DNA of 36,379 nucleotides from Desulfobacterales bacterium (GCA_037388985.1 JARRJQ010000013.1:2300-38678); one strand, 5' to 3'; numbered from the stretch's first letter, positions 521 to 35,903 are shown. A program made the numbers and translations. The notes: generated from the sequence alone by a model not told the origin.

Positions 521-1090
521 TTGGCTGAAAATATAAGAATGTGCGGATCCCGCATGACGAAAATAGTCGATCTTCATCATTATCGCACTCAAAGGGTTGA
601 GCAGCGGGCTTTTGGTCCCTGGCAAAAACGTTTCGGCGAAGCCTACAATGCAAAGACCTGCCTGGGTGAGCTTTCCGATCAGACCCTGTATTTCCTGGCC
701 CAACCTGGAGAAAGCTGTTCAATCGCTTATTATGAAGCCATAATGGGTGTCTTAGGTTTGGGACCCGCAGCAAAGTTTGACTATCTGTCCAGTGAAGAAC
801 AGATGAAAGTGGTGGATATCCACCTGTTTTTGGCCGACCAGTTGCGATTTGAAATGATGCGCCGTTTGACCTGGCTTGACACCCTGTCTTGTCAAAAAAT
901 CAGTATTGTTGAAATGATCCGGGATTTCAACGCGGTCAAAGCAAAGTGCGCCGGTAATCCTCCGAAACTGGCACCATCCCATCCGGGCTACGCATCTTAC
1001 CAAAATCTAGCTGCCCGCGATAAGGAAGTCTTTATTCGACAACTGCTGCGGCAGGCACTGGAGGAATTTCCGAAACGGTTTGAAAAATAA
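521..1090 (+). CDS. hypothetical protein (189 aa; alternative start at MTKIV, about 554)
   Basis: Long ORF with coding-like composition. No domain recognised by eye. Confidence 0.55.
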   Translation: MAENIRMCGSRMTKIVDLHHYRTQRVEQRAFGPWQKRFGEAYNAKTCLGELSDQTLYFLAQPGESCSIAYYEAIMGVLGLGPAAKFDYLSSEEQMKVVDIHLFLADQLRFEMMRRLTWLDTLSCQKISIVEMIRDFNAVKAKCAGNPPKLAPSHPGYASYQNLAARDKEVFIRQLLRQALEEFPKRFEK

Positions 1091-1117
1091 TTCAGATCGA
1101 AAAATAGAACCTATATA

Positions 1118-1313
1118 GAACCTATCTTAAAAATGTGGATCAGGGTTCAGGGCTCCCGCATATGCGGGATTTCACCTCTTGATTAAAGAGACACTAAGGA
1201 GTTCAAAAGGCGCGGCTTGGCGAAAAAGCGGAGCATACACGTTAGTATGTGAGCATTTTGAGCCGAGCCGCAACACAGCCATGAGCCCTTAGACGCATTT
1301 TTAAGATGGGTTC
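1118..1313. mobile_element. MITE-like element E1 (196 bp) with terminal inverted repeats and TA flanks
   Basis: Left end is GAACCTATCTTAAAAATG (1118-1135). The right end (1296-1313) reverse-complements to GAACCCATCTTAAAAATG. TA lies at 1116-1117 and 1314-1315. It contains the TCCCGC-loop-GCGGGA hairpin (1154-1169) and a 74-nt core homologous to 31593-31666. Confidence 0.55.
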
Positions 1314-2188
1314 TAAATAACTTTATTCAGAGGATATTCAATTATGCCTTCCGCTCCTTTTTTTAAAAGCCTGGGTATCAATTCGCGCACCACATCCGAA
1401 CTCACCACGATTTCCACCGAAAACCATTTGGTGTTATAAAGCGGGGCTACCGTCGGTGCGTTCAGACTGGGAAGCTGAGCGGTTACCTCTTTCATCTTTT
1501 CCTCGGGCACATTCATTTTAATGCCGACCATTTTTTCACCATGTAAGGCGGCGTTGAGCAAAAGCGCAATTTGCTCTATTTTCTCCCGTTTTTTACGATC
1601 TTTCCAGGACCGGTGATTGGCAATCAACTGGGTGTTGGTCTGCATCAATTCATGAATCACCCGCAGGCCATGCGCCTTGATTGTGGACTCGGTCTCGGTA
1701 ACTTCCACGATGGCATCTGCAAGACCGGAGACCGCTTTGGCTTCAGTCGCTCCCCAAGAGAATTCGACGTCGACTTTAATTCTACGTTTCTTGAAATAGC
1801 GTCGCGTAAAATTGACCATCTCAGTGGCAATCTTTTTCCCTTTGCAATCCTCTATCTTTTTAAGCGCAGAATCATAGGGTACCGCCAGTACCCAGCGTGC
1901 CGGCCGCGAACTCACCTTAGAATAAATCAGGTCGCAGACAACATGCACATCCGATTCGTTTTCGGCAATCCAATCTTTGCCGGTCAGTCCTGCGTCCAGG
2001 GTGCCGCTTTCAACATAATGAGACATCTCCTGTGCGCGGCAGATGGCACACTCGATTGCATCGTCATCAATTTCCGGAAAATAGCTTCTACCGTTAACAT
2101 TTATATTCCACCCTGAACGTTTAAACAGCGCAATGGTGGCATCCTGCAGACTTCCTTTGGGAATTCCCAGTTTGAGCCGTTGTTTCAC
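1313..2188 (-). CDS. hisG: ATP phosphoribosyltransferase, long form
   Basis: 291 aa. The N-terminus [22 protein letters not shown] and the overall length are typical of long-form HisG. It overlaps hisI by 4 nt. Confidence 0.9.
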
Positions 2189-2714: not shown

Positions 2715-3878
2715 ATGGCAAAGCAAAAAAGCAAATCCGAGATCTTAAAACAACGCACCCGACCCAAAAAGCGCCGCTTTTTGCGAGCATTTTTGCTGTG
2801 GTCATTTCTGGTGGGTTTTATTTTGGTGCTGATGGGGGCGCTGGCCGGTATCGGCGTTTATTTCTATTTGAGCAGCAGGTTGCCTCAGATTGGCTCTTTA
2901 ACCGAATATCATCCGCCGATCATTAGCACTGTCTATTCGGATGACGGGCGCAAGATTGGCGAATTTTTTGAGGAGCGCCGGATTGTCAAACCTCTTGATC
3001 AGATCCCCGAGCAGCTGATTAATGCATTTATCGCGGCAGAGGATTCGCGGTTTTACAAACACAAAGGTGTTGATTTTTACAGCATCCTCCGCGCGTTTTT
3101 CAAAAACTTGGAGGCCGGTACGATTGTTCAAGGCGGCAGTACCATCACCCAGCAGGTAACCAAATCCTTTTTGTTGACGCCCGAAAAAAGCTATACCCGG
3201 AAATTAAAAGAAGCCATCTTAGCCTACCGGATAGACAAAGCATTTAATAAAAAAGAGATTCTTTACCTATACCTGAACCAGATCTATTTGGGACATGGTG
3301 CATATGGGGTAGAAGCAGCCGCTGAAAATTATTTTGGTAAATCGGCCAAGGATCTTAACCTGGCCGAATGTGCCATTTTGGCCGGATTACCTCAGGCACC
3401 CAGCAAATACTCACCATTTAAATATCCGGAGCGCGCCAAGCAGCGCCAGATTTACGTGTTAAACCGCATGGTGGACGAAGGCTATATTACCAACATCGAA
3501 GCCACCGAGGCGATTAACACCACCGTTGAGATCAAGCCTCGCCGTAATTGGTATATTGAAGAAATCCCTTACTACACCGAGCAGGTTCGCCGCTATGTCG
3601 AGGAAAAATATGGACGAGACATGCTGTACAATCAAGGACTCAAGAGTTATACGGCCGCTAACATTGAAATGCAAAAAATCGCCGAGGAGGAAGTTGAAAA
3701 AGGACTTTATGAACTTGATAAACGCCAGGGCTTCCGGGGCCCGGAACAGCAGCTAGCGCCCGAAGAGATCGAGGCATTTTCAAAAACGATTCAATCCGAG
3801 CTGGACGAGCACCCACTCGAAGCCGGCCAGATCCTAAAGGGCGTTGTGATTAAGGTGTTAAGTGTAAAGCAAAAATGA
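2715..3878 (+). CDS. mrcA: penicillin-binding protein 1A, N-terminal part (TM anchor plus GT51 glycosyltransferase domain); first half of a split gene
   Basis: GT51 motifs EDSRFYKHKGVD, GGSTITQQVTK and RKLKEA. It ends at a TGA that overlaps the ATG of the next ORF (ATGA at 3875-3878). Confidence 0.85.
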   Translation: MAKQKSKSEILKQRTRPKKRRFLRAFLLWSFLVGFILVLMGALAGIGVYFYLSSRLPQIGSLTEYHPPIISTVYSDDGRKIGEFFEERRIVKPLDQIPEQLINAFIAAEDSRFYKHKGVDFYSILRAFFKNLEAGTIVQGGSTITQQVTKSFLLTPEKSYTRKLKEAILAYRIDKAFNKKEILYLYLNQIYLGHGAYGVEAAAENYFGKSAKDLNLAECAILAGLPQAPSKYSPFKYPERAKQRQIYVLNRMVDEGYITNIEATEAINTTVEIKPRRNWYIEEIPYYTEQVRRYVEEKYGRDMLYNQGLKSYTAANIEMQKIAEEEVEKGLYELDKRQGFRGPEQQLAPEEIEAFSKTIQSELDEHPLEAGQILKGVVIKVLSVKQK

Positions 3879-4978
3879 AAGACGCGGATTTATGGCAGCT
3901 GGCTTTGGAGCAAGAACCTATAGCTCAGGCGGCCTTGCTTTGCATCGAAGCTGAAACCGGATTTGTAAAGGCTATTGTGGGCGGTCGCGACTTTCGCGAC
4001 AGCCAGTTTAACCGGGCATTGCAGTCCAGGCGACAGCCCGGCTCTGCTTTTAAACCGATTATCTATGCCGCCGCCTTAGATAAGAAGTTCGATGAACCCG
4101 GTAAATTTTATACCCCTGCAACGGTTATTATTGATTCACCGATTGTTTTTGAGGATGAGGAGAGGGATTTTACCTGGAAACCGAGAAATTACAAAGAGCA
4201 CTTTTTCGGTCCCACCCTAATGCGCGATGCGCTCGCTAAATCCCGCAATGTGGTAACGATCAAGATTTTACAAGACATCGGCGTGGAGTATGCCATTGAA
4301 TATGCCAAAAAACTGGGGATTACCTCTGAATTAAGCAAAAATCTTTCCATTGCGCTGGGTTCCTCAGGTGTATCATTGCTTGAGCTGACCAAAGCCTATT
4401 CGGTTTTCGCCAATCAGGGTTATCTGATTGAACCGGTATTTATAGTCAAAATCGAAGACCGGGACGGTAATGTACTTGAGGAGATGGCCCCCGAACGCGT
4501 TAAAGTCATCGACAAGACCACCGCCTACTTGATGACGCATATGCTGGAAGGTGTGGTTAAGTATGGAACCGCGTGGCGCGTCAAAGCATTAAATCGGCCG
4601 GTAGCCGGAAAAACCGGTACCACAAACAATTTATTCGACGCCTGGTTTATCGGTTATTCACCCCAGTATATCACCGGCACCTGGGTGGGCTTTGACGATG
4701 AGGCTCCCCTGGGAAAATCCGAAACCGGCTCCCGGGCCGCAAGCCCAATCTGGCTGGGTTTTATGCAGCGCATCCTGGCCGATAAGCCACCAAAGGTTTT
4801 CGAGGTGCCCGAGGGCGTGGTTTTTACTAAAATTGATGCCGAAACCGGGCTTTTACCGATTCCCGAATCCAAAGAGACGGCTTTTGTCTGTTTTAAGGAA
4901 GGCACCGAACCCACTGAATACAGTAAAAGACCCGGCGAAATTGCGGACACCGGCGAGTTTTTTAAGAAGGATCTTTAG
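3875..4978 (+). CDS. mrcA: penicillin-binding protein 1A, C-terminal part (transpeptidase domain); second half of a split gene
   Basis: Transpeptidase motifs RQPGSAFKP (SxxK), SRN and KTGTT. It lacks its own membrane anchor and continues the PBP1A alignment from the upstream ORF. Confidence 0.85.
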   Translation: MKDADLWQLALEQEPIAQAALLCIEAETGFVKAIVGGRDFRDSQFNRALQSRRQPGSAFKPIIYAAALDKKFDEPGKFYTPATVIIDSPIVFEDEERDFTWKPRNYKEHFFGPTLMRDALAKSRNVVTIKILQDIGVEYAIEYAKKLGITSELSKNLSIALGSSGVSLLELTKAYSVFANQGYLIEPVFIVKIEDRDGNVLEEMAPERVKVIDKTTAYLMTHMLEGVVKYGTAWRVKALNRPVAGKTGTTNNLFDAWFIGYSPQYITGTWVGFDDEAPLGKSETGSRAASPIWLGFMQRILADKPPKVFEVPEGVVFTKIDAETGLLPIPESKETAFVCFKEGTEPTEYSKRPGEIADTGEFFKKDL

Positions 4979-4980
4979 CC

Positions 4981-5216
4981 TGGCAACTGGTTTCTCGCTT
5001 CTTGCCGCTCGCAACTCGATTCTAGCCCAAAATAGGTTTCGGGTGTCAGGTTTCAGGTCAATAGATAAGCGCTGAGTGCTGAGGACTGAGGACTGAGCAA
5101 AAAATTATTCCTTATGTCCCACCGACCTCAGTCCTCAGCACTCAGTCCTCAGTCCTAAATTTGCAGACACCTGAAGCCTGACATGCAACCGGTAGCCAGA
5201 GGCCAGTTACAGACTT
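4981..5216. repeat. Nested composite inverted repeat made of three heptamer word types, filling the whole convergent spacer
   Basis: Outer tracts are TGGCAAC/TGGTTTC/TCGCTTC... (4981-5025) against 5187-5216. Middle arms are GGTGTCAGGTTTCAGGT (5034-5059) against GACACCTGAAGCCTGAC (5166-5186). Inner arms are GCTGAGTGCTGAGGACTGAGGACTGAG (5071-5097) against CTCAGTCCTCAGCACTCAGTCCTCAGTCC (5127-5155). Confidence 0.75.
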
Positions 5217-12340: not shown

Positions 12341-12587
12341 GCTGTTTGAATCGGCGAGCCGATTAGCGCTCCGCGCTTGAGGAGCACTTCGTTCGAGGAT
12401 CAGCCCTTCGGGCGTCTAGGAGCGCCCTGGCGGGCTTTAGGCAATAACCGGAGCCGACCCAGCTGCTATGGTTAATGATCCTTCATACTTCAACCCGTTT
12501 CATCAAATCCCGCAGAAAGCGGGATGCTCTTCAAGTGAAACGCTCCTCAAGCGCAGCGCTCCTCAAATTCCGCCCGAAGTGGGATGG
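12341..12587. repeat. Structured repeat E12, sharing modules with the E1/E13/E16/E31 family
   Basis: Inverted repeat GCGCTCCGCGCTTGAGGAGC (about 12365-12385) against GCTCCTCAAGCGCAGCGCTCC (about 12541-12562). Hairpin ATCCCGCAGAAAGCGGGAT at 12507-12525. The reverse complement contains CTAGACGCCCGAAGGGCTG, similar to CTAATGTCCGAGGGCTG in E31. Confidence 0.45.
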
Positions 12588-13389: not shown

Positions 13390-13634
13390 GAAGTGGTTTC
13401 AAAACCCCATCTAGCGTCCGATAGCTGCGTTGCAGCCCTCTTCAAATTAGGTGCTCATCCCGCCTCAGGCGGGACTGCGCTTTTTCACTTGTCCCGCCAT
13501 AGCCCCGTAGCTCGCCAAAGGGCGACGGCGGATCGGCCTGCGCTTGCTGAGCACCTTAAATTAGCAAGATTAGATGCGAAGTCCCGCTATCTAGCGGGGC
13601 TCTCGAACGCGATCTGAGACTTTGAAACCACTTC
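13390..13634. mobile_element. MITE-like element E13 (245 bp), E13/E31 subfamily
   Basis: Terminal inverted repeat GAAGTGGTTTCAAA (13390-13403) against TTTGAAACCACTTC (13621-13634). The left end GGTTTCAAAACCCCATCTAGCGTCCGATAGCTGCGTTGCAGCC is about 80% identical to the E31 left end. Internal hairpins lie at 13458-13474 and 13583-13598. Confidence 0.55.
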
Positions 13635-14496
13635 CGGCTAATTCTTCGTATAGTTTATATGGAATAAACAGCGCTCCTTTTCCTGTTCCCATTTCTATTT
13701 TTGGCGTTATTGAACCGTGAAAATCAGTGCCTCCGGTGATTAAAAGATTATATTTATCGGCGAGTTGCCTATAGCGCAGGATTTGTTCGGGCGAATGTTC
13801 CGGGTAATATACTTCTATTCCGCGCATTCCAATTTTTATTAAATTTTGGATGAGCTCCTCCAACTGAAAATCGTCAGTAATGTTTAAAAGAGCCGGATGG
13901 GCCAGTACCGGGACACCTCCAGCGCCCCTGATCATTTTAATGGTTTCTTCACATCCGATGCGATCTTTGTCAATATAGGCGGGCTTGCCGGCTCCTAAAA
14001 ATTTGTCAAATGCTTCATCCATCGATTCCACAAATCCCTTTTTGATCATTACCTGAGCGATATGCGGTCTGCCCAGCTGGCCATGGTCGACGGTTTGATT
14101 GACATCTTCCATCGAGATTTCAAGCCCCAATTCATTCAGCCGTTTTATAATTTTGGGATTGCGATTTTTCCTGGCTTCCCGGAGTCTGTTCAAGGCCTGA
14201 TTTAAGGCTTGATTATCAAGGCGGATACAATATCCCAAAATATGGAAACTGCCAGAACCGGGAAAAAACGGGGGGTGTGCTGCACTGATTTCGACGCCGG
14301 TTAAAAACTTTAAAGAAGAGGGTATGCCAGTTCGGAGAGCCTCTTTAGATCCATATATGGAGTCATGATCTGTTATAGCGATCGCGGCCAGATTAAGCCT
14401 TTGAGCATGGTCGATTATTTCAGCGGGTGTGAAAGAGCCATCTGAGGCAGTTGAATGTATATGAAGATCAATCCCCAGACGATTTTTATAATCCAA
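13591..14496 (-). CDS. PHP-domain phosphoesterase (TrpH/YciV-like)
   Basis: N-terminal DLHIHSTASDGS...AITDHD. TTG start. The last 14 codons and the stop lie inside repeat E13. Confidence 0.8.
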   Translation of the reverse strand: MDYKNRLGIDLHIHSTASDGSFTPAEIIDHAQRLNLAAIAITDHDSIYGSKEALRTGIPSSLKFLTGVEISAAHPPFFPGSGSFHILGYCIRLDNQALNQALNRLREARKNRNPKIIKRLNELGLEISMEDVNQTVDHGQLGRPHIAQVMIKKGFVESMDEAFDKFLGAGKPAYIDKDRIGCEETIKMIRGAGGVPVLAHPALLNITDDFQLEELIQNLIKIGMRGIEVYYPEHSPEQILRYRQLADKYNLLITGGTDFHGSITPKIEMGTGKGALFIPYKLYEELAGSGFKVSDRVREPR

Positions 14497-16624: not shown

Positions 16625-17012
16625 ATTGTCCGTCGTTCGTTGTCTGTTGTCCGTTGCAAGGACTTACTCAGAAAAACAAAAGCCGATCGAAAAGATCGAT
16701 TTTCCTCGCGCTGGATCGAAATCTCACATTTAGATAGTGAATATGTGGGAGACGATTCAAAGCGCTATCGAAACGAATCCGACTAGAAGCCATCTCAAAA
16801 ATGTCTTTTGGCCTCCCGCCTTTTTCGGCGGGATTGGTGCCTCGTTTCAAATCCTCGACAACCAATAGGTTGCCTGCGGTTTGAAACTCGGCCCCGCCGC
16901 GATCTTGAACCAAAATCCTATTTTTGAGATGGCTTCTAATACATGTTTCTGATCCAAGCACCCGTTAGTGTTTAGGAAATTGCTACTGACCACTAACCAC
17001 GGACAACGAACA
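16625..17012. repeat. Heptamer-arm inverted repeat (TTGTCCG/TCGTTCG words) whose loop carries MITE E16
   Basis: Left arm TTGTCCGTCGTTCGTTGTCTGTTGTCCGTTGC (16625-16656). Right arm AACCACGGACAACGAACA (16995-17012). The core GTTCGTTGTC is perfectly complementary between the arms. Confidence 0.6.
16786..16936. mobile_element. MITE-like element E16 (151 bp) with a perfect 17-bp terminal inverted repeat and TA flanks
   Basis: GAAGCCATCTCAAAAAT (16786-16802) against ATTTTTGAGATGGCTTC (16920-16936). TA at 16784-16785 and 16937-16938. Hairpin TCCCGCCTTTTTCGGCGGGA at 16814-16833. Confidence 0.6.
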
Positions 17013-25069: not shown

Positions 25070-25144
25070 AACACTAAATTTTGAGCAATTCCAAAAAGCG
25101 CAGCGCTTTTCCTTAGTCTTATACTCGAATTGCCTGATGCCGAC

Positions 25145-25183
25145 AAGCCGGTTGGAGTCAGACGTAAATCCCGATTTATCGGA
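25145..25183 (+). repeat. Bipartite 39-40-nt repeat, copy A
   Basis: AAGCCGGTTGGAG-N7-TAAATCCCGATTTATCGG. It matches the reverse complement of 27149-27188 over blocks of 13 and 18 nt. Confidence 0.6.
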
Positions 25184-25285
25184 GGCCTAAAAAATAAAAA
25201 TTTAGCCCCGAAAACAGAAAAATGAAAGAGTATAAATTTCATGCTTTCCAGATTTCGGGTTTTTGGGTTGAAATGATCCAGCAGC

Positions 25286-25825: not shown

Positions 25826-25941
25826 GGGTTTCAGTGTTCAGGTGTCAGAAAACAGAAGACAACGAACGTTGGACAGAACCTGATAACACCATAAGTCTTA
25901 AGGCTCGAACTGCTGACACCCGAAACCTGACACCTGAAACC
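25826..25941. repeat. Heptamer-arm hairpin (GTGTCAG/TGTTCAG words), copy 1, just 3' of the zinc-ribbon gene
   Basis: GGGTTTCAGTGTTCAGGTGTCAG (25826-25848) against CTGACACCCGAAACCTGACACCTGAAACC (25913-25941). The loop contains GACAACGAACG words like the 16625 element. Confidence 0.7.
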
Positions 25942-25945
25942 AAAA

Positions 25946-26263
25946 TTATACTTTTTGCCCGCAATGTGGGCAGTATTTGAAATCTTTATCCAGCCTTTTT
26001 CCACAATATCTGCATGTCCCGGCTCCTTCCTGTTGCCGCCGGATAAAATCCGAGTCAAACTCATGGAAGCTCTTCTCGCATCGCTCGCACATAATAAACG
26101 GTTGTCCTTTTTTAACTCTTAAGATTGGAATGAAAAAAAGGCTGAGGTAATGGTCGATGCGCTTATAGTAGGCCTGATTCAATCCGCAAACCGGGCATCT
26201 GCGGGGATTTTGATCCAAAATCTTTATTTTGGGTGCAACACCGGCGATGAAGATCATTTTCAA
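25946..26263 (-). CDS. zinc-ribbon domain protein (105 aa)
   Basis: Paired CxxC motifs (CPVCG...CERCE; CRYCG...CPHCG) with a hydrophobic segment between them. TTG start at 26263, or ATG at 26257. Confidence 0.6.
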   Translation of the reverse strand: MKMIFIAGVAPKIKILDQNPRRCPVCGLNQAYYKRIDHYLSLFFIPILRVKKGQPFIMCERCEKSFHEFDSDFIRRQQEGAGTCRYCGKRLDKDFKYCPHCGQKV

Positions 26264-26276
26264 AAGTTCATGCTTT

Positions 26277-26408
26277 AGGTTTCAGGTGTCAGTGTTCAGG
26301 TGTCAGCGCTGCCGGGTTGGAGGGTTTAAGGTTCAGCATTGAGAGGTCTGCCCTTGAATATAATGCATTGAGGAAACCTGACACCCGAAACCTGACACCT
26401 GAAACCTG
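26277..26408. repeat. Heptamer-arm hairpin (GTGTCAG/TGTTCAG words), copy 2, just 5' of the zinc-ribbon gene
   Basis: AGGTTTCAGGTGTCAGTGTTCAGGTGTCAG (26277-26306) against GAAACCTGACACCCGAAACCTGACACCTGAAACCTG (26373-26408). The 29-nt right arm is identical to 25913-25941. Confidence 0.75.
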
Positions 26409-27047: not shown

Positions 27048-27130
27048 CACCACGAAAACACGAAATTTAAAAAAGCACGAAATTTATATTATTATTTTTC
27101 GTGTTTTTATCTTTTCGTGCTTTCGTGATT
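27048..27130. repeat. Word-arm inverted repeat (CACGAAA words)
   Basis: CACCACGAAAACACGAAATTTAAAAAAGCACGAAATTT (27048-27085) against TTTTTCGTGTTTTTATCTTTTCGTGCTTTCGTGATT (27095-27130). Confidence 0.6.
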
Positions 27131-27148
27131 AATTAATCTTTTTTAGTT

Positions 27149-27188
27149 CCCCGATAAATCGGGATTTAAGCTTCGCTCCAACCGGCTT
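27149..27188 (-). repeat. Bipartite 39-40-nt repeat, copy B
   Basis: The reverse complement reads AAGCCGGTTGGAG-CGAAGCT-TAAATCCCGATTTATCGGGG. It contains the 14-nt palindrome CCCGATTTATCGGG. Confidence 0.6.
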
Positions 27189-27267
27189 ATCCGGGTTAGG
27201 TAATAGATGCCGAATTCTATCGGATCGGCTGCATTTTATCCCAAATAATATCTCAGTCAATATCGCT

Positions 27268-30408: not shown

Positions 30409-31560
30409 GTGTCCGATCGTCCAAAAGAAATTGAATCGTTGCTGCTGGTTGACGACAATCCAACCAATCTCCAGGTCCTTTATCAAACCCTTGAAACAAC
30501 CGGTTGCAAGCTGTTAGTGGCCAAAAACGGTGAAACCGCGTTGTCCATTGCCCAAAAAGCATCACCGGATCTGATTTTGCTGGATATCATGATGCCCGGA
30601 ATAGATGGATTTGAGGTCTGTCGCCGCCTAAAAGGCGATCCGGCCACAGCAGCCATTCCGGTCATTTTTCTTTCAGCGCTTACCGACACCAAGGACAAGG
30701 TCCAGGGACTTCAACTGGGGGCGGTTGATTACGTCTCCAAACCGTTTCAACCGGATGAAGTCATTGCGCGGGTAAACACCCACCTGACCATTCATCGACT
30801 CAAGCGCGAAGTCGAAAAGAAAAAAGATGCACTTGAAAATGAACTTAAAATCGTCTCCGATGTCCAGCGCCGACTGCTGCCCAAGAAGGTGCCGGAAATT
30901 CCGGGTTTTAAACTCGCGGTTCATTATGAAACCAGCCTTTATGCCGGTGGCGACTATTACGATATCGTCAAAATGCAAGACAATCAATGGGGCTTTCTGG
31001 TGGCCGATGCCGAGGGACACAGCGCGCCAGCGGCAGTCATGATGGCCATGACCTGCGCGCTTTTTCGTTCTTATCCTCAACCGCCCACGGAACCCGGCGA
31101 ACTTCTGTATTTTCTGAATGATCACCTGTGCAAGGTTGCCGATCCCAGCTTTGTCACCGCCTTATACGTGGTCTACGATGCCGACCATCACACCGTAAAA
31201 ATTGCACGGGCTGGCCATCCGCCGCCGATGATTTGCCGCTCTGACGAGCAAAAAGCAATCGAGGTTGATTGCAGCGGTGTGTTTCCCATGGGAGTCGATC
31301 CCTACGATCGAGTGCCACCGGTAACCGAAGTCGAATTAAAGCCTGGAGATCGCATACTGATGTATACGGACGGGGTTACCGAAAGGTTTAACACGGATGC
31401 GGAAACATATGGAGAAGAACGTCTGCTGAAGCAGCTTGAAGTCAACCTGGAGGGCGGCCCTGAAGAATTGCTGGCTGCCATTATGCAAGATGTGGACGCT
31501 TTTGCCAATGGTCGCCCGGCGGATGATGATCAGGCCTTGTTGTTAGCCATCGTACGGTAA
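30409..31560 (+). CDS. response regulator with PP2C-type (SpoIIE/RsbU-like) phosphatase output
   Basis: N-terminal REC domain (LLVDDNPTNL...LLDIMMPGIDG...SKP) and a C-terminal PP2C domain (GGDYYD...VADAEGHS...YTDGVTE...DDQALL). GTG start after AGGAG. Confidence 0.85.
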   Translation: MSDRPKEIESLLLVDDNPTNLQVLYQTLETTGCKLLVAKNGETALSIAQKASPDLILLDIMMPGIDGFEVCRRLKGDPATAAIPVIFLSALTDTKDKVQGLQLGAVDYVSKPFQPDEVIARVNTHLTIHRLKREVEKKKDALENELKIVSDVQRRLLPKKVPEIPGFKLAVHYETSLYAGGDYYDIVKMQDNQWGFLVADAEGHSAPAAVMMAMTCALFRSYPQPPTEPGELLYFLNDHLCKVADPSFVTALYVVYDADHHTVKIARAGHPPPMICRSDEQKAIEVDCSGVFPMGVDPYDRVPPVTEVELKPGDRILMYTDGVTERFNTDAETYGEERLLKQLEVNLEGGPEELLAAIMQDVDAFANGRPADDDQALLLAIVR

Positions 31561-31703
31561 AATTGGTTTTAAAACCCCATCTAATGTCCGAGGGCTGTGT
31601 TACAAGCCGGCTAAAAATGCTCACGTACTATCGTGTACGCTCCGCTTTTTAGCCGACTTGCGCCTTGCCCTCAGCCATAATCTGAGGTCTTAAAACCAAT
31701 TTT
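31559..31703. mobile_element. MITE-like element E31 (145 bp)
   Basis: 14-bp perfect terminal inverted repeat AAAATTGGTTTTAA (31559-31572) / TTAAAACCAATTTT (31690-31703). The left end is homologous to E13. The 74-nt core (31593-31666) is 81% identical, ungapped, to the reverse complement of 1207-1280. Confidence 0.6.
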
Positions 31704-31817: not shown

Positions 31818-34800
31818 TTAAGCCTTTTTGGCAAGCTTTTCCAACTCACCTACCAATTTGGAAATTCCTTCAAAGTCAAAGTCCTCGGCCAATCGAACAA
31901 ATTGATCACCGATGGGGATGAAGGCATCGGATTTGGACTTCAGCTCTGCGACAATGGACTTTACCTGGGTGACATCACCCATTTCAGCCGGCTCTTTGAT
32001 TCGGTCGACAGCCTCCTCAGCCAAGTTGGGCGGCAGGTCGACCATTTCGTTTGAAGACGGCCGTTGAGGCTTTTCAGCGGGCACCGGACCCAAGGTTTGG
32101 ACCGCTTCCAGAGCGTGATTGATGGACTTTTCCAGTTTCGCAAATTTTGGGTCCCACTGCTTTTGAGATACTGCCTTTGCTTGATCTCCTTTAACCAGTT
32201 TCTCCAATTCCACCGCCGAGGCCTGAAGCTCGGTGGCCGCCAGATTTCCGGCCAACCCCTTCAGGTTGTGAATCAGGCTGTGGGCCTGCTTTAAATCCCC
32301 GGCATCCAGTGCCTGTCGGATTTCAGCGGCCACCTGGGTGTATTTGCCACCGAAATCCATCAGCAGCTTTCGGTAAAGCTGTTGATTGCCCCGCAGGCGC
32401 TTGAGTCCTTCGGCCAGGTCAAATCCAGGCAGGGAATCCGGCAACACTGTTTTTGGCGGCATCGTCTTGATTGCCGCCGCTTTTGCAGCCGATGGCACCG
32501 CCGGTCGGACCGGCACATGTTTGCCTGTCGGCTGTATCCATTTTTGTAAAGTCGCAAACAGCTGATCCGGATCTATAGGCTTGGTGACATGGCCGTTCAT
32601 GCCGGCGGTCATGCTTCTTTCTTCATCTCCGGCCATGGCATGGGCGGTCATGGCTATAATTGGAAGTGCTGAGGACTGAGGACTGAGGGCTGAGTTTGCT
32701 TTTTGGATTTCTTTTTCCCACTCGCGTATTTTGCGAGTTGCGGTGTAGCCGTCCATAACCGGCATCTGTATATCCATAAGCACGGCGTCATAATGATTGT
32801 TCTGCACAGCAACAACGGCCTCCTGGCCGTTGTTGGCCAGGGTGACCCTGAGGCCGGCACCTTCCAATATTTCCCTGGCCACCTGCTGGTTGATCTCGTT
32901 GTCCTCTGCCAGCAATACCTGCGCCCCCCGGATATTTCGTAATGTATCGGTCTCCTGCGCCTTCATCCGGGCTCTGTGTGAAGTTTCCAGCACCTCTTTG
33001 CCGAAAGCCTGCATGATGGCGTAAAAAAGAACCGAAGGGCTCACCGGTTTGAGCAGGAATCCATCCAGTCCGAGGTGTTCGGCCTTGCGCATCACGTCTT
33101 CCCGACCGTAAGCCGTCACCATGATAATGGCGGGGATATACTTCAGGCCGGAATGCTGCTTGATGCGCCGGGCGGCCTCGATGCCGTCCATGCCCGGCAT
33201 CTTCCAGTCCATAATCACCAGCTCAATCGGTCCCTCCTCAGGAGCATTCTCCAACTCAACCAGCCCTTCCGGACCGGATGCCGCCAGGGCAACGTTAAAT
33301 GAAAAAGACTCCAGCATATCCTGAAAGATTTCCCGTGAGGTGAAATTGTCGTCCACCACCAGCACTTTCATGCCCCGCATTTCCGGTGAAGTAGCAAAGT
33401 GCCTCTTGGCTCTCTGCTTTCCCGGACCGAAGGTGGCCGTAAAACTGAAGGTGCTGCCCCGACCGAGTTTGCTTTCCACCCAGATTTCACCGTTCATCAT
33501 CTCCACAAGGCGCTTGCTGATAGCCAGGCCCAGTCCGGTTCCGCCGTATTTGCGCGTGGTGGAGGTATCGGCTTGACTGAAGGATTGAAACATCCTGGCC
33601 GCCTGTTCCTGTGTCAGCCCGATACCCGTATCGCTGACCGCAAACTTCAACGTGATCCGCTCTTCACTCTGTTTTAACAATTCGGTGGAGACCACAATTT
33701 CACCCTGTTCGGTAAATTTGACCGCATTGTTGGCCAGATTGATCAAAATCTGCCCCAGTCGCAACGGATCACCCACCAGAAAGTGGGGAACATCCTGCGC
33801 CGTAGCGAAAAGAACTTCCAGATCCTTTTTTTCCTGGGCCTTTACGGTGACCAGATTAGCCAGATTATCCAGCACTTCATCAAGGTTGAAGTCGATCGAT
33901 TCCATGTCGAGTTTGCCGGCCTCGATCTTGGAAAAATCCAAAATGTCGTTGATGATGCCCAGAAGCGAATTGGCTGATGACTGGATCTTGGTCAGATAAT
34001 CCCGCTGTTTTGAGGTCAACTCGGTCTTTAAGGCCAGATGGGCCATGCCGATGATCGCATTCATCGGTGTGCGGATTTCGTGGCTCATATTGGCCAAAAA
34101 ATCACCCTTGGCCCTGTTGGCCTCCTCGGCGGCCTGTTTGGCCTCGATTAATTCAACTTCCATCTGCTTGCGTCCGGTGATATCGCTGAACACCACCACA
34201 CTTCCCGTGAGGGTGCCGTTTCTCGCAATCGGAACACTGCTGTATTCCACAGGAAAAAAGGTGCCGTCTTTACGCCACAGAATTTCATCATCGATCTTGG
34301 CGCTCGTACCTTTGGTCAGCGTTTGATGCATCGGACAATCTGCGAGGGGATAGGGAGTTCCGTCAGCATGCGTGTGATGCACCAGGGCATGAATCTGCTG
34401 GCCGATCACTTCTTCGGCTTTAAAGCCCAGCATGGCCAATCCGGCCGGATTGATGAAAGAAACCAATCCGTCTCGCCCAACGCCAAAGATACCTTCGCCG
34501 GCTGACTCTAAAAGAAGGCGGCTGCGCTCTTCAGCCTGCTCGAGGCGCTTCTGATTTTCTTTCAATTCGGCAGTGCGCTCGGCGACCAACTCTTCCAGGT
34601 GATCGCGATGTTTCTTTAGTTCGGATTCTGATTGTTTCAGCGCAGACTCGGCCTGATCAATGGAAGCAATCATTTCGTTGAAAGACTGAGCCAGGCTGCC
34701 GACTTCATCTTTGGATTTGATTTCAATTTGATAGTCGAGATCACCGGTTTGGGCGATCATCCGGGTACCGTCATTCAGCTTTTTTATGGGTTTGATGACA

Positions 34801-35785: not shown

Positions 35786-35903
35786 CAAAATTTTAAAATG
35801 ATCTAAAATGCCTAAATTTGAGGAATTCTATCATATGATAAAAGATGGAGCACAGCGACACCATAACTTTAGGCATTTTAGATCATTTTAGGCACTTTAG
35901 ACA
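35786..35903. repeat. Word-arm inverted repeat; homolog of the 21110-21274 element
   Basis: Perfect 22-bp stem AAAATGATCTAAAATGCCTAAA (35794-35815) / TTTAGGCATTTTAGATCATTTT (35867-35888). The loop contains AAAAGATGGAGC (35839-35850). Confidence 0.75.

What the first reader, a model, noticed from the sequence alone, without database searches (positions are those of the whole stretch)
1207..1280. The 74-nt core shared by E1 and E31 shows four compensatory base-pair substitutions
The reverse complement of 1207-1280 aligns without gaps to 31593-31666, with 60 of 74 positions identical. Eight of the 14 differences fall in four predicted base pairs and preserve pairing. In the long stem, 31604/31659 A-T, 31605/31658 A-T and 31606/31657 G-C in E31 correspond to G-C, G-C and C-G in E1. 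In the apical stem, 31625/31638 G-C corresponds to A-T. The fold is a stem of about 15 bp (CAAGCCGGCTAAAAA/TTTTTAGCCGACTTG) enclosing a 5-bp stem (CGTAC/GTACG). Covariation like this is the classic signature of selection on structure, whether in an RNA or in a DNA hairpin recognised by a protein.
Basis: seen in the sequence. Interest (0 to 1): 0.62.

Follow-up and report, generated by a model that had tools for sequence, protein, structure and literature searches.

The report
Conserved core of ERIC-like hairpin transposon
The two matching 74-base hairpins are the conserved centre of a small non-coding jumping element, a relative of the enterobacterial ERIC repeat, which inserts into the TA of stop codons; the compensatory base changes are real, but this kind of element is already known.

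Summary
The reverse complement of 1207-1280 matches 31593-31666 at 60 of 74 positions, and four base pairs are compensated.

With 119 further copies from other genomes the hairpin shows massive covariation. It has two asymmetric conserved loops and folds much better on one strand.

It is not a free-standing RNA gene. It is the apex of a 145-196 bp terminal-inverted-repeat element (a MITE). The window holds four copies: 1118-1313, 13390-13634, 16786-16936 and 31559-31703.

- **Insertion shown:** relatives with 93% identical hisG have an empty site, so E1 was inserted into the TA of the hisG TAA stop codon.
- **Placement:** about half of all copies abut a stop codon, nearly always in one orientation.
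- **Spread:** true members occur in Desulfobacterales, gut Alphaproteobacteria, Alistipes, Nitrosomonas and every E. coli genome searched.
- **Relatives:** the classic ERIC repeat shares the apex motif, two flanking blocks and the same strand asymmetry.

No transposase is linked to the element, and what the conserved apex does is not shown. Verdict: a real feature, a new member of a known kind, of moderate interest.

The parts
1118..1313 (-). E1, full element of 196 bp. Its termini are GAACC...GGTTC. Its right arm carries an extra module of about 65 nt (GAAATCCCGC-ATATGCGGGAG hairpin).
   Evidence: Inverted repeat I3. The empty-site comparison with L120/L121 sets the boundaries.
1207..1280 (-). 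E1 core, the 74-nt hairpin named in the finding. The better-folding strand is the window + strand.
   Evidence: CM R1 scores 85.6 bits at 1201-1290 on the + strand.
1313..1315 (-). Stop codon TAG of hisG (1313-2188, - strand). It is made of the duplicated target TA (1314-1315) plus the first base G of the element. The second TA copy is at 1116-1117.
   Evidence: Relatives with 93% identical HisG read ...GTTATT-TAA-ATTATTTTTC with no element. HisG domains were found by Pfam.
1083..1115 (.). About 22 extra bases between E1 and the point where homology with the empty site resumes. They include a 9-10 nt duplicate of the element end (TAGAACCTA).
   Evidence: Origin not explained.
31559..31703 (+). 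E31, full element of 145 bp with 37-nt terminal inverted repeats. It starts at the TAA stop (31558-31560) of the response-regulator/PP2C gene 30409-31560. The right-hand TA has decayed to TG.
   Evidence: Inverted repeat I5. Fold energies are -58.0 (+ strand) and -80.8 kcal/mol (- strand). Pfam domains.
31593..31666 (+). E31 core, the 74-nt hairpin. The better-folding strand is the window - strand.
   Evidence: CM R1 scores 92.6 bits at 31583-31672 on the - strand.
16786..16936 (+). Third copy, 151 bp, with perfect 17-nt terminal repeats (GAAGCCATCTCAAAAAT) and TA on both sides (16784-16785 and 16937-16938). Its apex is divergent (CCGCAGG...CGAGGA) with a compensated closing pair. It lies between hemA and fabD, with the better-folding strand in the sense direction.
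   Evidence: CM R1 scores 31.1 bits, E = 9e-6, at 16817-16906 on the - strand. Sequence, fold.
13390..13634 (+). E13, a probable divergent and longer member. It shares its outer arm with E31 (80% over 50 nt). Its apex is AAAAAGCGCAG-[7-bp GC hairpin]-TGAGCA, which keeps the loop invariants. The stop of the PHP-domain gene 13591-14496 lies inside its right arm.
   Evidence: Repeats D3 and I7, alignment, blastn. The CM hit is weak: 12.7 bits, E = 0.64.

Best explanation
The 74-nt core is the conserved apex of a non-autonomous, TA-inserting miniature inverted-repeat element (MITE) of 145-196 bp, belonging to an ERIC-like superfamily.

Shown:
- The element folds end to end into a long hairpin. On its better-folding strand the consensus reads 5'-GGC-G-[~10-bp variable stem]-AAAA-GC-G-GA-GC-RUAC-loop-GUAY-GU-GA-GC-A-UUUU-[stem']-C-AACRCA-GCC.
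- The stems covary freely, while the two asymmetric loops are kept.
- It inserts at TA and duplicates it. E1 landed in the TA of the hisG TAA stop codon and rebuilt the stop as TAG.
- About half of all copies sit in that same register on a stop codon, almost always with the weaker-folding strand as the sense strand.
- The window holds no transposase, and no protein family is linked to the element.

Inferred:
- It is mobilised in trans by a DDE transposase of the IS630/Tc1-mariner type, as proposed for ERIC relatives.
- Once inserted it is co-transcribed into the 3' end of the upstream mRNA.
- Orientation-dependent RNA effects then decide which insertions survive. A very stable hairpin right behind a stop codon would be disfavoured, while the other orientation would be tolerated or useful for mRNA decay or stability, as reported for ERIC in Yersinia.
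- The hairpin and its apical tandem G.A / G.U motif are kept because lineages that lose them no longer propagate or are no longer tolerated.
For: **Structure.** There are 119 copies with strong covariation. Copies found by the covariance model that break the search pattern still compensate the closing pair (G-C to C-G or A-U) and keep CGSAG/UGAG.

**Mobility.** None of 80 orthologous hisG loci carries the element. Those at 93% identity give a clean empty site with TA. In E. coli the hemE-nfi junction is empty in K-12 and occupied in other strains.

**Ends.** Copies end in TA|GAAnnn...nnnTTC|TA.

**Placement.** Sixty of 124 copies have an open frame of at least 150 codons ending 18-44 nt before the core on one strand, with a mode at 29-31 nt. 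Only 10 do so on the other strand (p = 8e-10). Divergent-promoter contexts are rare, 5 of about 100.

**Non-autonomous.** The window contains only housekeeping genes. No protein family recurs in the 8-kb flanks of 119 loci.

**Family.** E. coli and Klebsiella copies score 42.7 and 45.1 bits, E about 1e-10.

**ERIC link.**
- The ERIC consensus (PMC2759123) carries exact CAAGGCG and AACGCAGCC in the right order and on the right strand. None of 20,000 shuffles reaches this.
- It has the apex GGAGC-TTAC-ATAA-GTAA-GTGA.
- It shows the same strand asymmetry, -61.8 against -45.2 kcal/mol.
- The covariance model scores it 15.4 bits.

**Literature.** ERIC has TA termini and a target duplication, is co-transcribed, and has orientation-dependent effects on mRNA stability (PMC2229807). 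ERIC-type MITEPlu5 resembles IS630-type ends (PMC6267812). Compensatory changes are known in the MITE-like bcr1 repeat (PMC3184786).
Against: - No mobilising transposase was identified.
- The terminal repeats differ strongly between subfamilies while the apex is the most conserved part. This is the reverse of a textbook MITE and is not explained by a transposase that binds the termini.
- The strand favoured by wobble pairs is usually antisense to the abutting gene. Simple selection on the mRNA hairpin does not predict the observed polarity.
- Transcription of the window copies was not shown. RNA contigs only show that some copies of the family occur in metatranscriptomes, without strand information.
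- The ERIC link rests on short blocks. nhmmer found nothing and local alignment gave z = 2.1. The four-block test gave p of about 0.007-0.03.
Confidence: 0.78

Rival explanations
1. The hairpin is conserved because the element moves through a single-stranded DNA intermediate. An enzyme that reads folded DNA, such as a HUH/Y1 transposase or another structure-specific recombinase, would recognise the folded better-folding strand with its asymmetric loops. On this view covariation reflects a requirement for mobilisation, not an RNA function.
For: - The wobble bias has the same polarity whatever the direction of flanking transcription: 50:18, 24:10 and 11:7.
- The apex, not the termini, is the invariant part across phyla.
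- The fold difference between the strands is large and shared with ERIC.
Against: - TA duplication and long terminal inverted repeats are hallmarks of DDE cut-and-paste elements, not of IS200/IS605 or REP/RAYT systems, which make no duplication.
- No Y1/RAYT gene recurs near the copies.
- The orientation bias relative to stop codons needs a transcript-level or replication-level effect in any case.
Confidence: 0.15
2. The compensatory changes are not selected. They arise because mismatches between the two arms of a palindrome are repaired against each other when the DNA extrudes as a hairpin or cruciform. That would be intra-element gene conversion.
For: - The whole element is a palindrome.
- Many changes on both sides are inherited within subfamilies, so the number of independent events is far smaller than the number of cells counted.
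Against: - Arm-to-arm conversion would erase the asymmetric loops (GGA opposite GA, the unpaired A, the AACRCA bulge). These are kept from Desulfobacterales to E. coli.
- It would not give a strand bias of G.U over A.C.
Confidence: 0.07
3. The core is a host-selected functional RNA module carried on a mobile vehicle. It could be a bidirectional terminator, or a 3'-UTR stability or processing signal, for example an RNase E or RNase III substrate. On this view it is kept because it benefits the host genes next to it.
For: - The apex hairpin is flanked by an A-run and a U-run.
- The elements sit at gene ends and avoid divergent promoters.
- ERIC and Correia elements are reported to modulate mRNA decay (PMC2229807).
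- An RNase III gene lies in the window next to E13, which is weak evidence.
Against: - A simple terminator scan finds one weak site in E31 and none in E1.
- The element is absent from all 80 orthologous hisG loci, so the host does not need it there.
- No strand-resolved RNA evidence was obtained.
Confidence: 0.2
4. It is a free-standing structured small-RNA gene or riboswitch-like element that happens to be duplicated.
For: There is strong covariation and there are conserved loops.
Against: - There is insertion polymorphism with TA duplication.
- The element is multicopy and dispersed next to unrelated genes.
- No promoter was found and no Rfam family matches.
Confidence: 0.03

Closest known systems
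ERIC / IRU / RU-1 (ISfinder MITEEc1; MITEYpe1 in Yersinia, MITEPlu5 in Photorhabdus)
   Same: - It is an imperfect palindrome over its whole length, with TA at the termini and a TA duplication.
- It lies between genes and is co-transcribed.
- The apex has the same design: stem - GA/GA loop - G.U - 4-bp stem (GGAGC-NUAC...GUAN-GUGA).
- The flanking blocks CAAGGCG and AACGCAGCC are identical, in the same order and on the same strand.
- The same strand folds better.
- From memory of De Gregorio et al. 2005 (not held in the library): ERICs next to stop codons also prefer one orientation.
   Different: - ERIC is 127 bp and reported from Enterobacteriaceae and Vibrionaceae. Here the elements are 145-196 bp and sit in Desulfobacterales and other phyla.
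- ERIC has a symmetric 2x2 loop and a CCCCAG/CUGGGG stem. This family has a 3x2 loop, a bulged A and an AAAA/UUUU stem.
- The terminal repeats are unrelated.
- Sequence profiles alone do not link the two.
The ~150-bp repeat present in every E. coli genome searched (median 5 places), probably what the K-12 GenBank record calls RSA (150/151 bp, 6 copies)
   Same: - It is a true member by covariance model: 42.7-45.1 bits, E about 1e-10.
- The apex is nearly identical (AAAAUSCUCAC-GUAC-loop-GUAC-GCUCCGSUUUU).
- It inserts on stop codons in the same orientation: hemE TAA in E. coli, dnaN TAG in Klebsiella.
- It is polymorphic between strains.
   Different: - The outer arms and the basal bulge differ; there is no GCUGCGUU block.
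- The name RSA is inferred only from length and copy number (PMC5172473) and was not verified against an annotated record.
Correia/NEMIS (Neisseria), RUP (pneumococcus) and bcr1 (Bacillus cereus group)
   Same: - They are small non-coding TIR elements with TA or short duplications.
- Their transcripts form hairpins that affect neighbouring mRNAs.
- bcr1 shows compensatory base changes (PMC2229807, PMC3184786).
   Different: - No sequence similarity was seen.
- Those families are confined to a genus or family.
- Their termini, not their centre, are the conserved part.
REP/BIME with RAYT, and IS200/IS605-derived PATE elements
   Same: They are extragenic palindromes at gene ends, and single-stranded hairpins matter for their mobilisation.
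   Different: - They have no terminal inverted repeats of this kind and make no TA duplication.
- They have a GTAG motif and an associated Y1 transposase, neither of which was found here.

Membership tests
Bacterial MITE (non-autonomous TIR element) | Small size (under about 300 bp) and no coding capacity | tested here: met
   The elements are 145-196 bp. The only ORFs over them are spurious short frames.
Bacterial MITE (non-autonomous TIR element) | Terminal inverted repeats | tested here: met
   Repeats I3, I5 and I7 span 36-43 nt. Copy 3 has perfect 17-nt repeats.
Bacterial MITE (non-autonomous TIR element) | Target-site duplication, and filled versus empty sites | tested here: met
   hisG shows empty (L120/L121) against filled (window) with TA. 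E. coli hemE-nfi is empty in K-12 and filled in other strains.
Bacterial MITE (non-autonomous TIR element) | Many dispersed copies | tested here: met
   There are four copies in the window. Metagenome depth is 50-100 times the flanks.
Bacterial MITE (non-autonomous TIR element) | A parent insertion sequence or transposase with matching ends | not testable with these tools
   None lies in the window or the 8-kb flanks.
ERIC / IRU (MITEEc1) | TA termini and TA duplication | tested here: met
   The ERIC properties are taken from PMC2229807, Table 1.
ERIC / IRU (MITEEc1) | The conserved 44-bp central inverted repeat (GTGAATCCCCAGGAGCTTACATAAGTAAGTGACTGGGGTGAGCG) | tested here: inconclusive
   Only the inner GGAGC-NTAC...GTAN-GTGA is shared, and the CCCCAG/CTGGGG stem is replaced. 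The covariance model gives 15.4 bits. nhmmer gives no hit. The two flanking blocks match exactly, with 0 of 20,000 shuffles reaching this.
ERIC / IRU (MITEEc1) | Length of about 127 bp and occurrence in Enterobacteriaceae/Vibrionaceae | tested here: not met
   These elements are 145-196 bp and the host is an uncultured Desulfobacterales. They are therefore filed as a relative in the same superfamily, not as ERIC proper.
ERIC / IRU (MITEEc1) | Orientation preference of copies that abut stop codons | tested here: met
   The split is 60 against 10 copies. That ERIC behaves this way is recalled from De Gregorio et al. 2005, which could not be opened.
REP/RAYT or IS200/IS605 PATE | No target duplication, a 5' GTAG or guide motif, and an associated Y1 transposase | tested here: not met
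   A TA duplication is present. No recurrent transposase lies in the flanks.
Described RNA family (Rfam 15) | A match to any covariance model | tested here: not met
   There was no hit at gathering score over the window, and none at E up to 10 over E1. The ERIC locus itself hits V_AS5 (RF02818) below threshold.

The most novel reading that the evidence does not exclude
ERIC, the E. coli ~150-bp repeat and this family would form one ancient, pan-bacterial superfamily. Its unit of selection would be the apical module: a tandem G.A loop closed by a G.U pair on a short hairpin, plus an A-rich bulge. A conserved cellular or transposon-encoded factor would read that module in a single-stranded form of one specific strand. 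The module would ride on interchangeable terminal repeats and be delivered preferentially to stop codons in one orientation, acting as a mobile 3'-end cassette.
Probability: 0.15. Interest if true: 0.7.

Novelty: new member of a known kind. Interest (0 to 1): 0.4.

Why it matters
The finding shows that a signal that looks like an undiscovered structured RNA, namely clean compensatory substitutions, can come from a mobile hairpin element. It also gives a concrete way to tell the two apart: empty sites, TA duplication and the register on stop codons.

ERIC repeats have served as typing targets for decades, yet their mobilisation and function remain unsettled. ERIC-like elements here share one apical motif and one strand polarity from sulfate reducers to E. 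coli and gut Bacteroidota. This points to a conserved, still unidentified requirement.

That requirement could be tested in E. coli K-12, which has an empty hemE-nfi site that is occupied in other strains.

Tried and rejected
**Searches that found nothing**
- Rfam gave no match, at gathering score over the window or at E up to 10 over E1.
- A search for a protein linked to the element clustered 2,737 ORFs from 119 loci. Only generic families recurred: response regulators, ABC ATPases and Hdr-like proteins.
- A simple terminator scan found one weak site in E31 and none in E1.

**Tests of the ERIC link**
- An nhmmer profile of the family did not hit ERIC. The profile is over-fitted to the exact pattern used to collect the copies.
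- Smith-Waterman alignment against shuffles gave z = 2.1.

**Reads and RNA**
- Laying metagenome contigs on E31 to find an empty site gave no clean result. It showed only a huge pile-up of other copies and one unclear 398-nt joint.
- The only RNA found for the window locus was other copies of the apex in one metatranscriptome, with no strand information.
- RNA contigs on the D. variabilis locus showed a relative with half the element deleted, not an empty site.

**Candidate identities rejected**
- Chunjie of Geobacter has 9-bp duplications.
- RU-3 of E. coli is a REP pair.
- attC sites lack the required pairing: the GTT lies in an unpaired bulge with no AAC partner.
- A K-turn would need a 3-nt bulge before the GA, which is absent.
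- IS200/IS605 ends do not fit, because terminal repeats and a duplication are present.

**Tools and papers not available**
No whole-genome census, replication-strand analysis or search for a parent IS was possible.
- De Gregorio et al. 2005 could not be opened.

Full report
**1. The observation**

The reverse complement of 1207-1280 aligns without gaps to 31593-31666 at 60 of 74 positions. Eight of them form four compensated pairs: 31604/31659, 31605/31658, 31606/31657 and 31625/31638.

The similarity extends to 98 nt and is far above chance, with blastn E = 4e-16. Both copies lie between convergent genes.

**2. More copies and the structure**

Rfam has nothing here. One scan of species-representative genomes used the two blocks conserved between E1 and E31, ATGCTCAC-N14-GCTCCGCTTTT. 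About four matches were expected by chance.

Most loci are Desulfobacterales or "Deltaproteobacteria" MAGs. Others are gut Alphaproteobacteria, Alistipes/Rikenellaceae, Gammaproteobacteria and Nitrosomonas. Only two hits look like chance.

In nearly every copy the free 14 nt form a 4-5 bp stem that covaries: GTAC/GTAC, ATAC/GTAT, ATAT/ATAT, CTAC/GTAG, AACC/GGTT and CACC/GGTG. The roughly 10-bp stem outside the conserved blocks differs in sequence but stays complementary.

On the 119-copy alignment:
- 85.9% of cells are paired, against 69% in shuffles and at most 51% with partners slid.
- The covariation score is 0.434 against 0.14, and 0 of 500 shuffles reach it.
- 19 of 27 pairs show changes on both sides.

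A covariance model (R1) finds about 20 further copies that break the search pattern. These still compensate the closing pair, G-C to C-G or A-U. They leave only 5'-N-C-G-S-A-G...U-G-A-G-N' invariant.

The fold has two asymmetric features that never become symmetric: a GGA/GA internal loop next to a G.U pair, and an unpaired AACRCA bulge.

**3. Strand asymmetry**

I call the better-folding strand f (E1 +, E31 -) and the other strand L.
- The f strand folds better in 119 of 122 cores.
- Full-length E31 gives -80.8 (f) against -58.0 kcal/mol (L), with z = -14.5 against -8.2.
- In the variable stems there are 126 G.U cells on f against 56 A.C. The ratio is similar whichever way the neighbouring genes run.

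**4. What it is**

The core is nested in a longer palindrome: E1 is 1118-1313 and E31 is 31559-31703.

The window has two more copies:
- 16786-16936, with R1 at 31 bits, perfect 17-nt terminal repeats and TA on both sides.
- 13390-13634, which shares E31's outer arm and keeps the loop invariants on a different apical hairpin.

Across Desulfobacterales the ends read TA|GAAnnn..TnnAAAA ... TTTTnnA..nnnTTC|TA.

*Empty-site test.* I fetched 80 metagenomic loci encoding HisG at 77-93% identity to the gene next to E1. None contains the element. The two closest loci read ...GTTATT-TAA-ATTATTTTTCAAAC. The window reads ...GTTATT-TA|GAACCC...GGTTC|TA, followed by about 22 extra bases and then ATTATTTTTCAAAC.

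E1 is therefore an insertion into the TA of the hisG TAA stop codon. The TA is duplicated and the stop is rebuilt as TAG.

*No transposase.* The window contains only housekeeping genes and no transposase. No protein family recurs beside the 119 copies. The element is a non-autonomous MITE.

**5. Placement**

Sixty of 124 copies have an open frame of at least 150 codons ending 18-44 nt before the core on the L strand. The mode is sharp at 29-31 nt, which places the stop codon at the element's first bases. Only 10 copies show this on the f strand (p = 8e-10).

Divergent-promoter contexts are rare. A cut-and-paste enzyme acting on symmetric ends should be blind to orientation. The bias therefore argues for strand-specific selection after insertion. 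This is an inference.

**6. Relatives in well-known bacteria**

A blastn search of plasmid records with E31 hit Enterobacteriaceae. The E. coli copy lies between hemE and nfi, and the Klebsiella aerogenes copy between dnaN and recF. They score 42.7 and 45.1 bits with R1, E about 1e-10. Both start on the upstream gene's stop codon in the L orientation.

All 5,426 complete E. coli genomes have the family, with a median of 5 places. K-12 has an empty hemE-nfi site, CGC-TAA-GGAG. Other strains read CGC-TAA-[GAGCCTGG...CCAGGCTC]-TAA-GGAG.

By length and copy number this is probably the "RSA" repeat of the K-12 record, listed at 150/151 bp and six copies (PMC5172473). I could not verify the name.

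**7. The ERIC link**

The apex recalled the ERIC core. The 44-mer joined from the two ERIC primers is in 5,424 of 5,426 E. coli genomes.

Evidence for a relationship:
- The published 127-nt consensus (PMC2759123) carries, on its f-like strand, exact CAAGGCG and AACGCAGCC. These are the two most conserved blocks of my alignment that were not fixed by the search pattern. They are in the right order around the apex GGAGC-TTAC-ATAA-GTAA-GTGA.
- A two-block position-weight test gives the maximum possible score. None of 20,000 dinucleotide or palindrome-preserving shuffles reaches it.
- ERIC shows the same strand asymmetry, -61.8 against -45.2 kcal/mol.

Weaker or negative results:
- A four-block test that includes the over-fitted apex columns gives p of about 0.007-0.03.
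- R1 scores an ERIC locus at 15.4 bits, E = 0.003 over 844 nt.
- nhmmer finds nothing and plain local alignment gives z = 2.1.

I read this as a real but distant relationship, at about 70% confidence.

*Literature.*
- ERIC has TA termini and a target duplication, is co-transcribed, and has orientation-dependent effects on upstream mRNA stability through a proposed RNase E site (PMC2229807).
- The ERIC-type MITEPlu5 has end similarity to IS630-type transposons and 47 indels between two strains (PMC6267812).
- Compensatory changes are known in the MITE-like bcr1 repeat (PMC3184786).
- From memory only: ERICs next to stop codons prefer one orientation (De Gregorio et al. 2005). The paper was not held.

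**8. Mechanism**

Shown: the element is a mobile, TA-duplicating, non-coding hairpin. Its stems covary, its loops are asymmetric and conserved, it has a preferred folding strand, and it shows an orientation-biased association with stop codons.

Inferred: it is mobilised in trans by an IS630/Tc1-type transposase, it is co-transcribed with the upstream gene, and survival depends on orientation at the RNA level.

Two things remain unexplained. The apex, rather than the termini, is the invariant part. And the strand favoured by wobble pairs is usually antisense to the abutting gene. Both keep open the rival view that a folded single strand of DNA is what is recognised during mobilisation.

**9. 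What failed**

- RNA evidence was weak. Metatranscriptome contigs contain copies of the family but carry no strand information, and none spans the window loci.
- Laying metagenome contigs on E31 showed a 50-100-fold pile-up of other copies but no clean empty site.
No census, no replication-strand analysis and no search for a parent IS could be made.

**10. Earlier notes of this scan**

One search lists similar TA-inserting, stop-codon-anchored, strand-asymmetric hairpin MITEs in other phyla. One is in Rikenellaceae, and one is "spread across ... many sulfate-reducer relatives". I saw these after reaching the ERIC reading. They agree with it but are not independent evidence.

**Verdict**

The structural interpretation is right as far as it goes. 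The object is the conserved apex of an ERIC-like MITE, a new member of a known kind, with an unresolved and testable question about what reads the apex.

Noticed in passing
L002:5841-6180 (also L006, L013, L074, L088, L096): In gut Alphaproteobacteria and Alistipes MAGs the short form of the element (about 88 nt) occurs in head-to-tail arrays of two or three copies with a 126-nt period between co-directional genes. Within the array the closing pair of the apex loop is compensated (G-C, A-T, G.T).
   Followed up: partly
window 1140-1200; window 13540-13600; L043 and L035 right arms: A subfamily carries an extra module of about 65 nt in the right arm. It ends in a small GC hairpin (GAAATCCCGC-ATATGCGGGAG). 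Copy 3 has a different side hairpin (CCCGCCGAAAAAGGCGGG, about 16823-16840). The family therefore appears to accept nested cargo.
   Followed up: no
window 1083-1115: About 22 bases between E1 and the resumed homology with the empty site include a duplicate of the element end (TAGAACCTA). This could be the remnant of a second insertion or of an aberrant event.
   Followed up: no
window 13591-13634: The stop codon and last ~14 codons of the PHP-domain gene (13591-14496, - strand) lie inside the right arm of E13. The element may have replaced the gene's original C-terminus.
   Followed up: no
L024:3135-3299: Wetland metatranscriptome contigs of relatives of Desulfosarcina variabilis join 3134 to 3300 with GA in between. 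They keep only the left half of the element downstream of the HdrA-like gene.
   Followed up: partly
window 5034-5156, 25827-26407, 32664-32694: Other hairpin repeats here are built from tandem 7-8 nt words (GGTTTCAGGTGTCAG, CTGAGGACTGAG). One tract lies inside the 1315-aa hybrid histidine kinase ORF. An earlier follow-up of this scan already treated them.
   Followed up: no
window 25129-25221 and 27112-27204; 12368-12559; 35794-35890: There are three further unrelated inverted-repeat or palindromic elements in intergenic spacers. They are a 93-nt pair at 72% complementarity, a 39-nt-arm palindrome upstream of the RNase III gene, and a 26-nt-arm AT-rich palindrome.
   Followed up: no
window 2715-3878 and 3875-4978: The transglycosylase and transpeptidase domains of a class A penicillin-binding protein sit in two ORFs that overlap by 4 nt. 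This could be a natural split, a frameshift or an assembly error.
   Followed up: no
L200:359-482: An E. coli ERIC copy matches the Rfam family V_AS5 (Vibrio antisense RNA AS5, RF02818) at 46 bits, below the gathering score of 96. That Vibrio 'RNA gene' family is probably an ERIC-type repeat.
   Followed up: no
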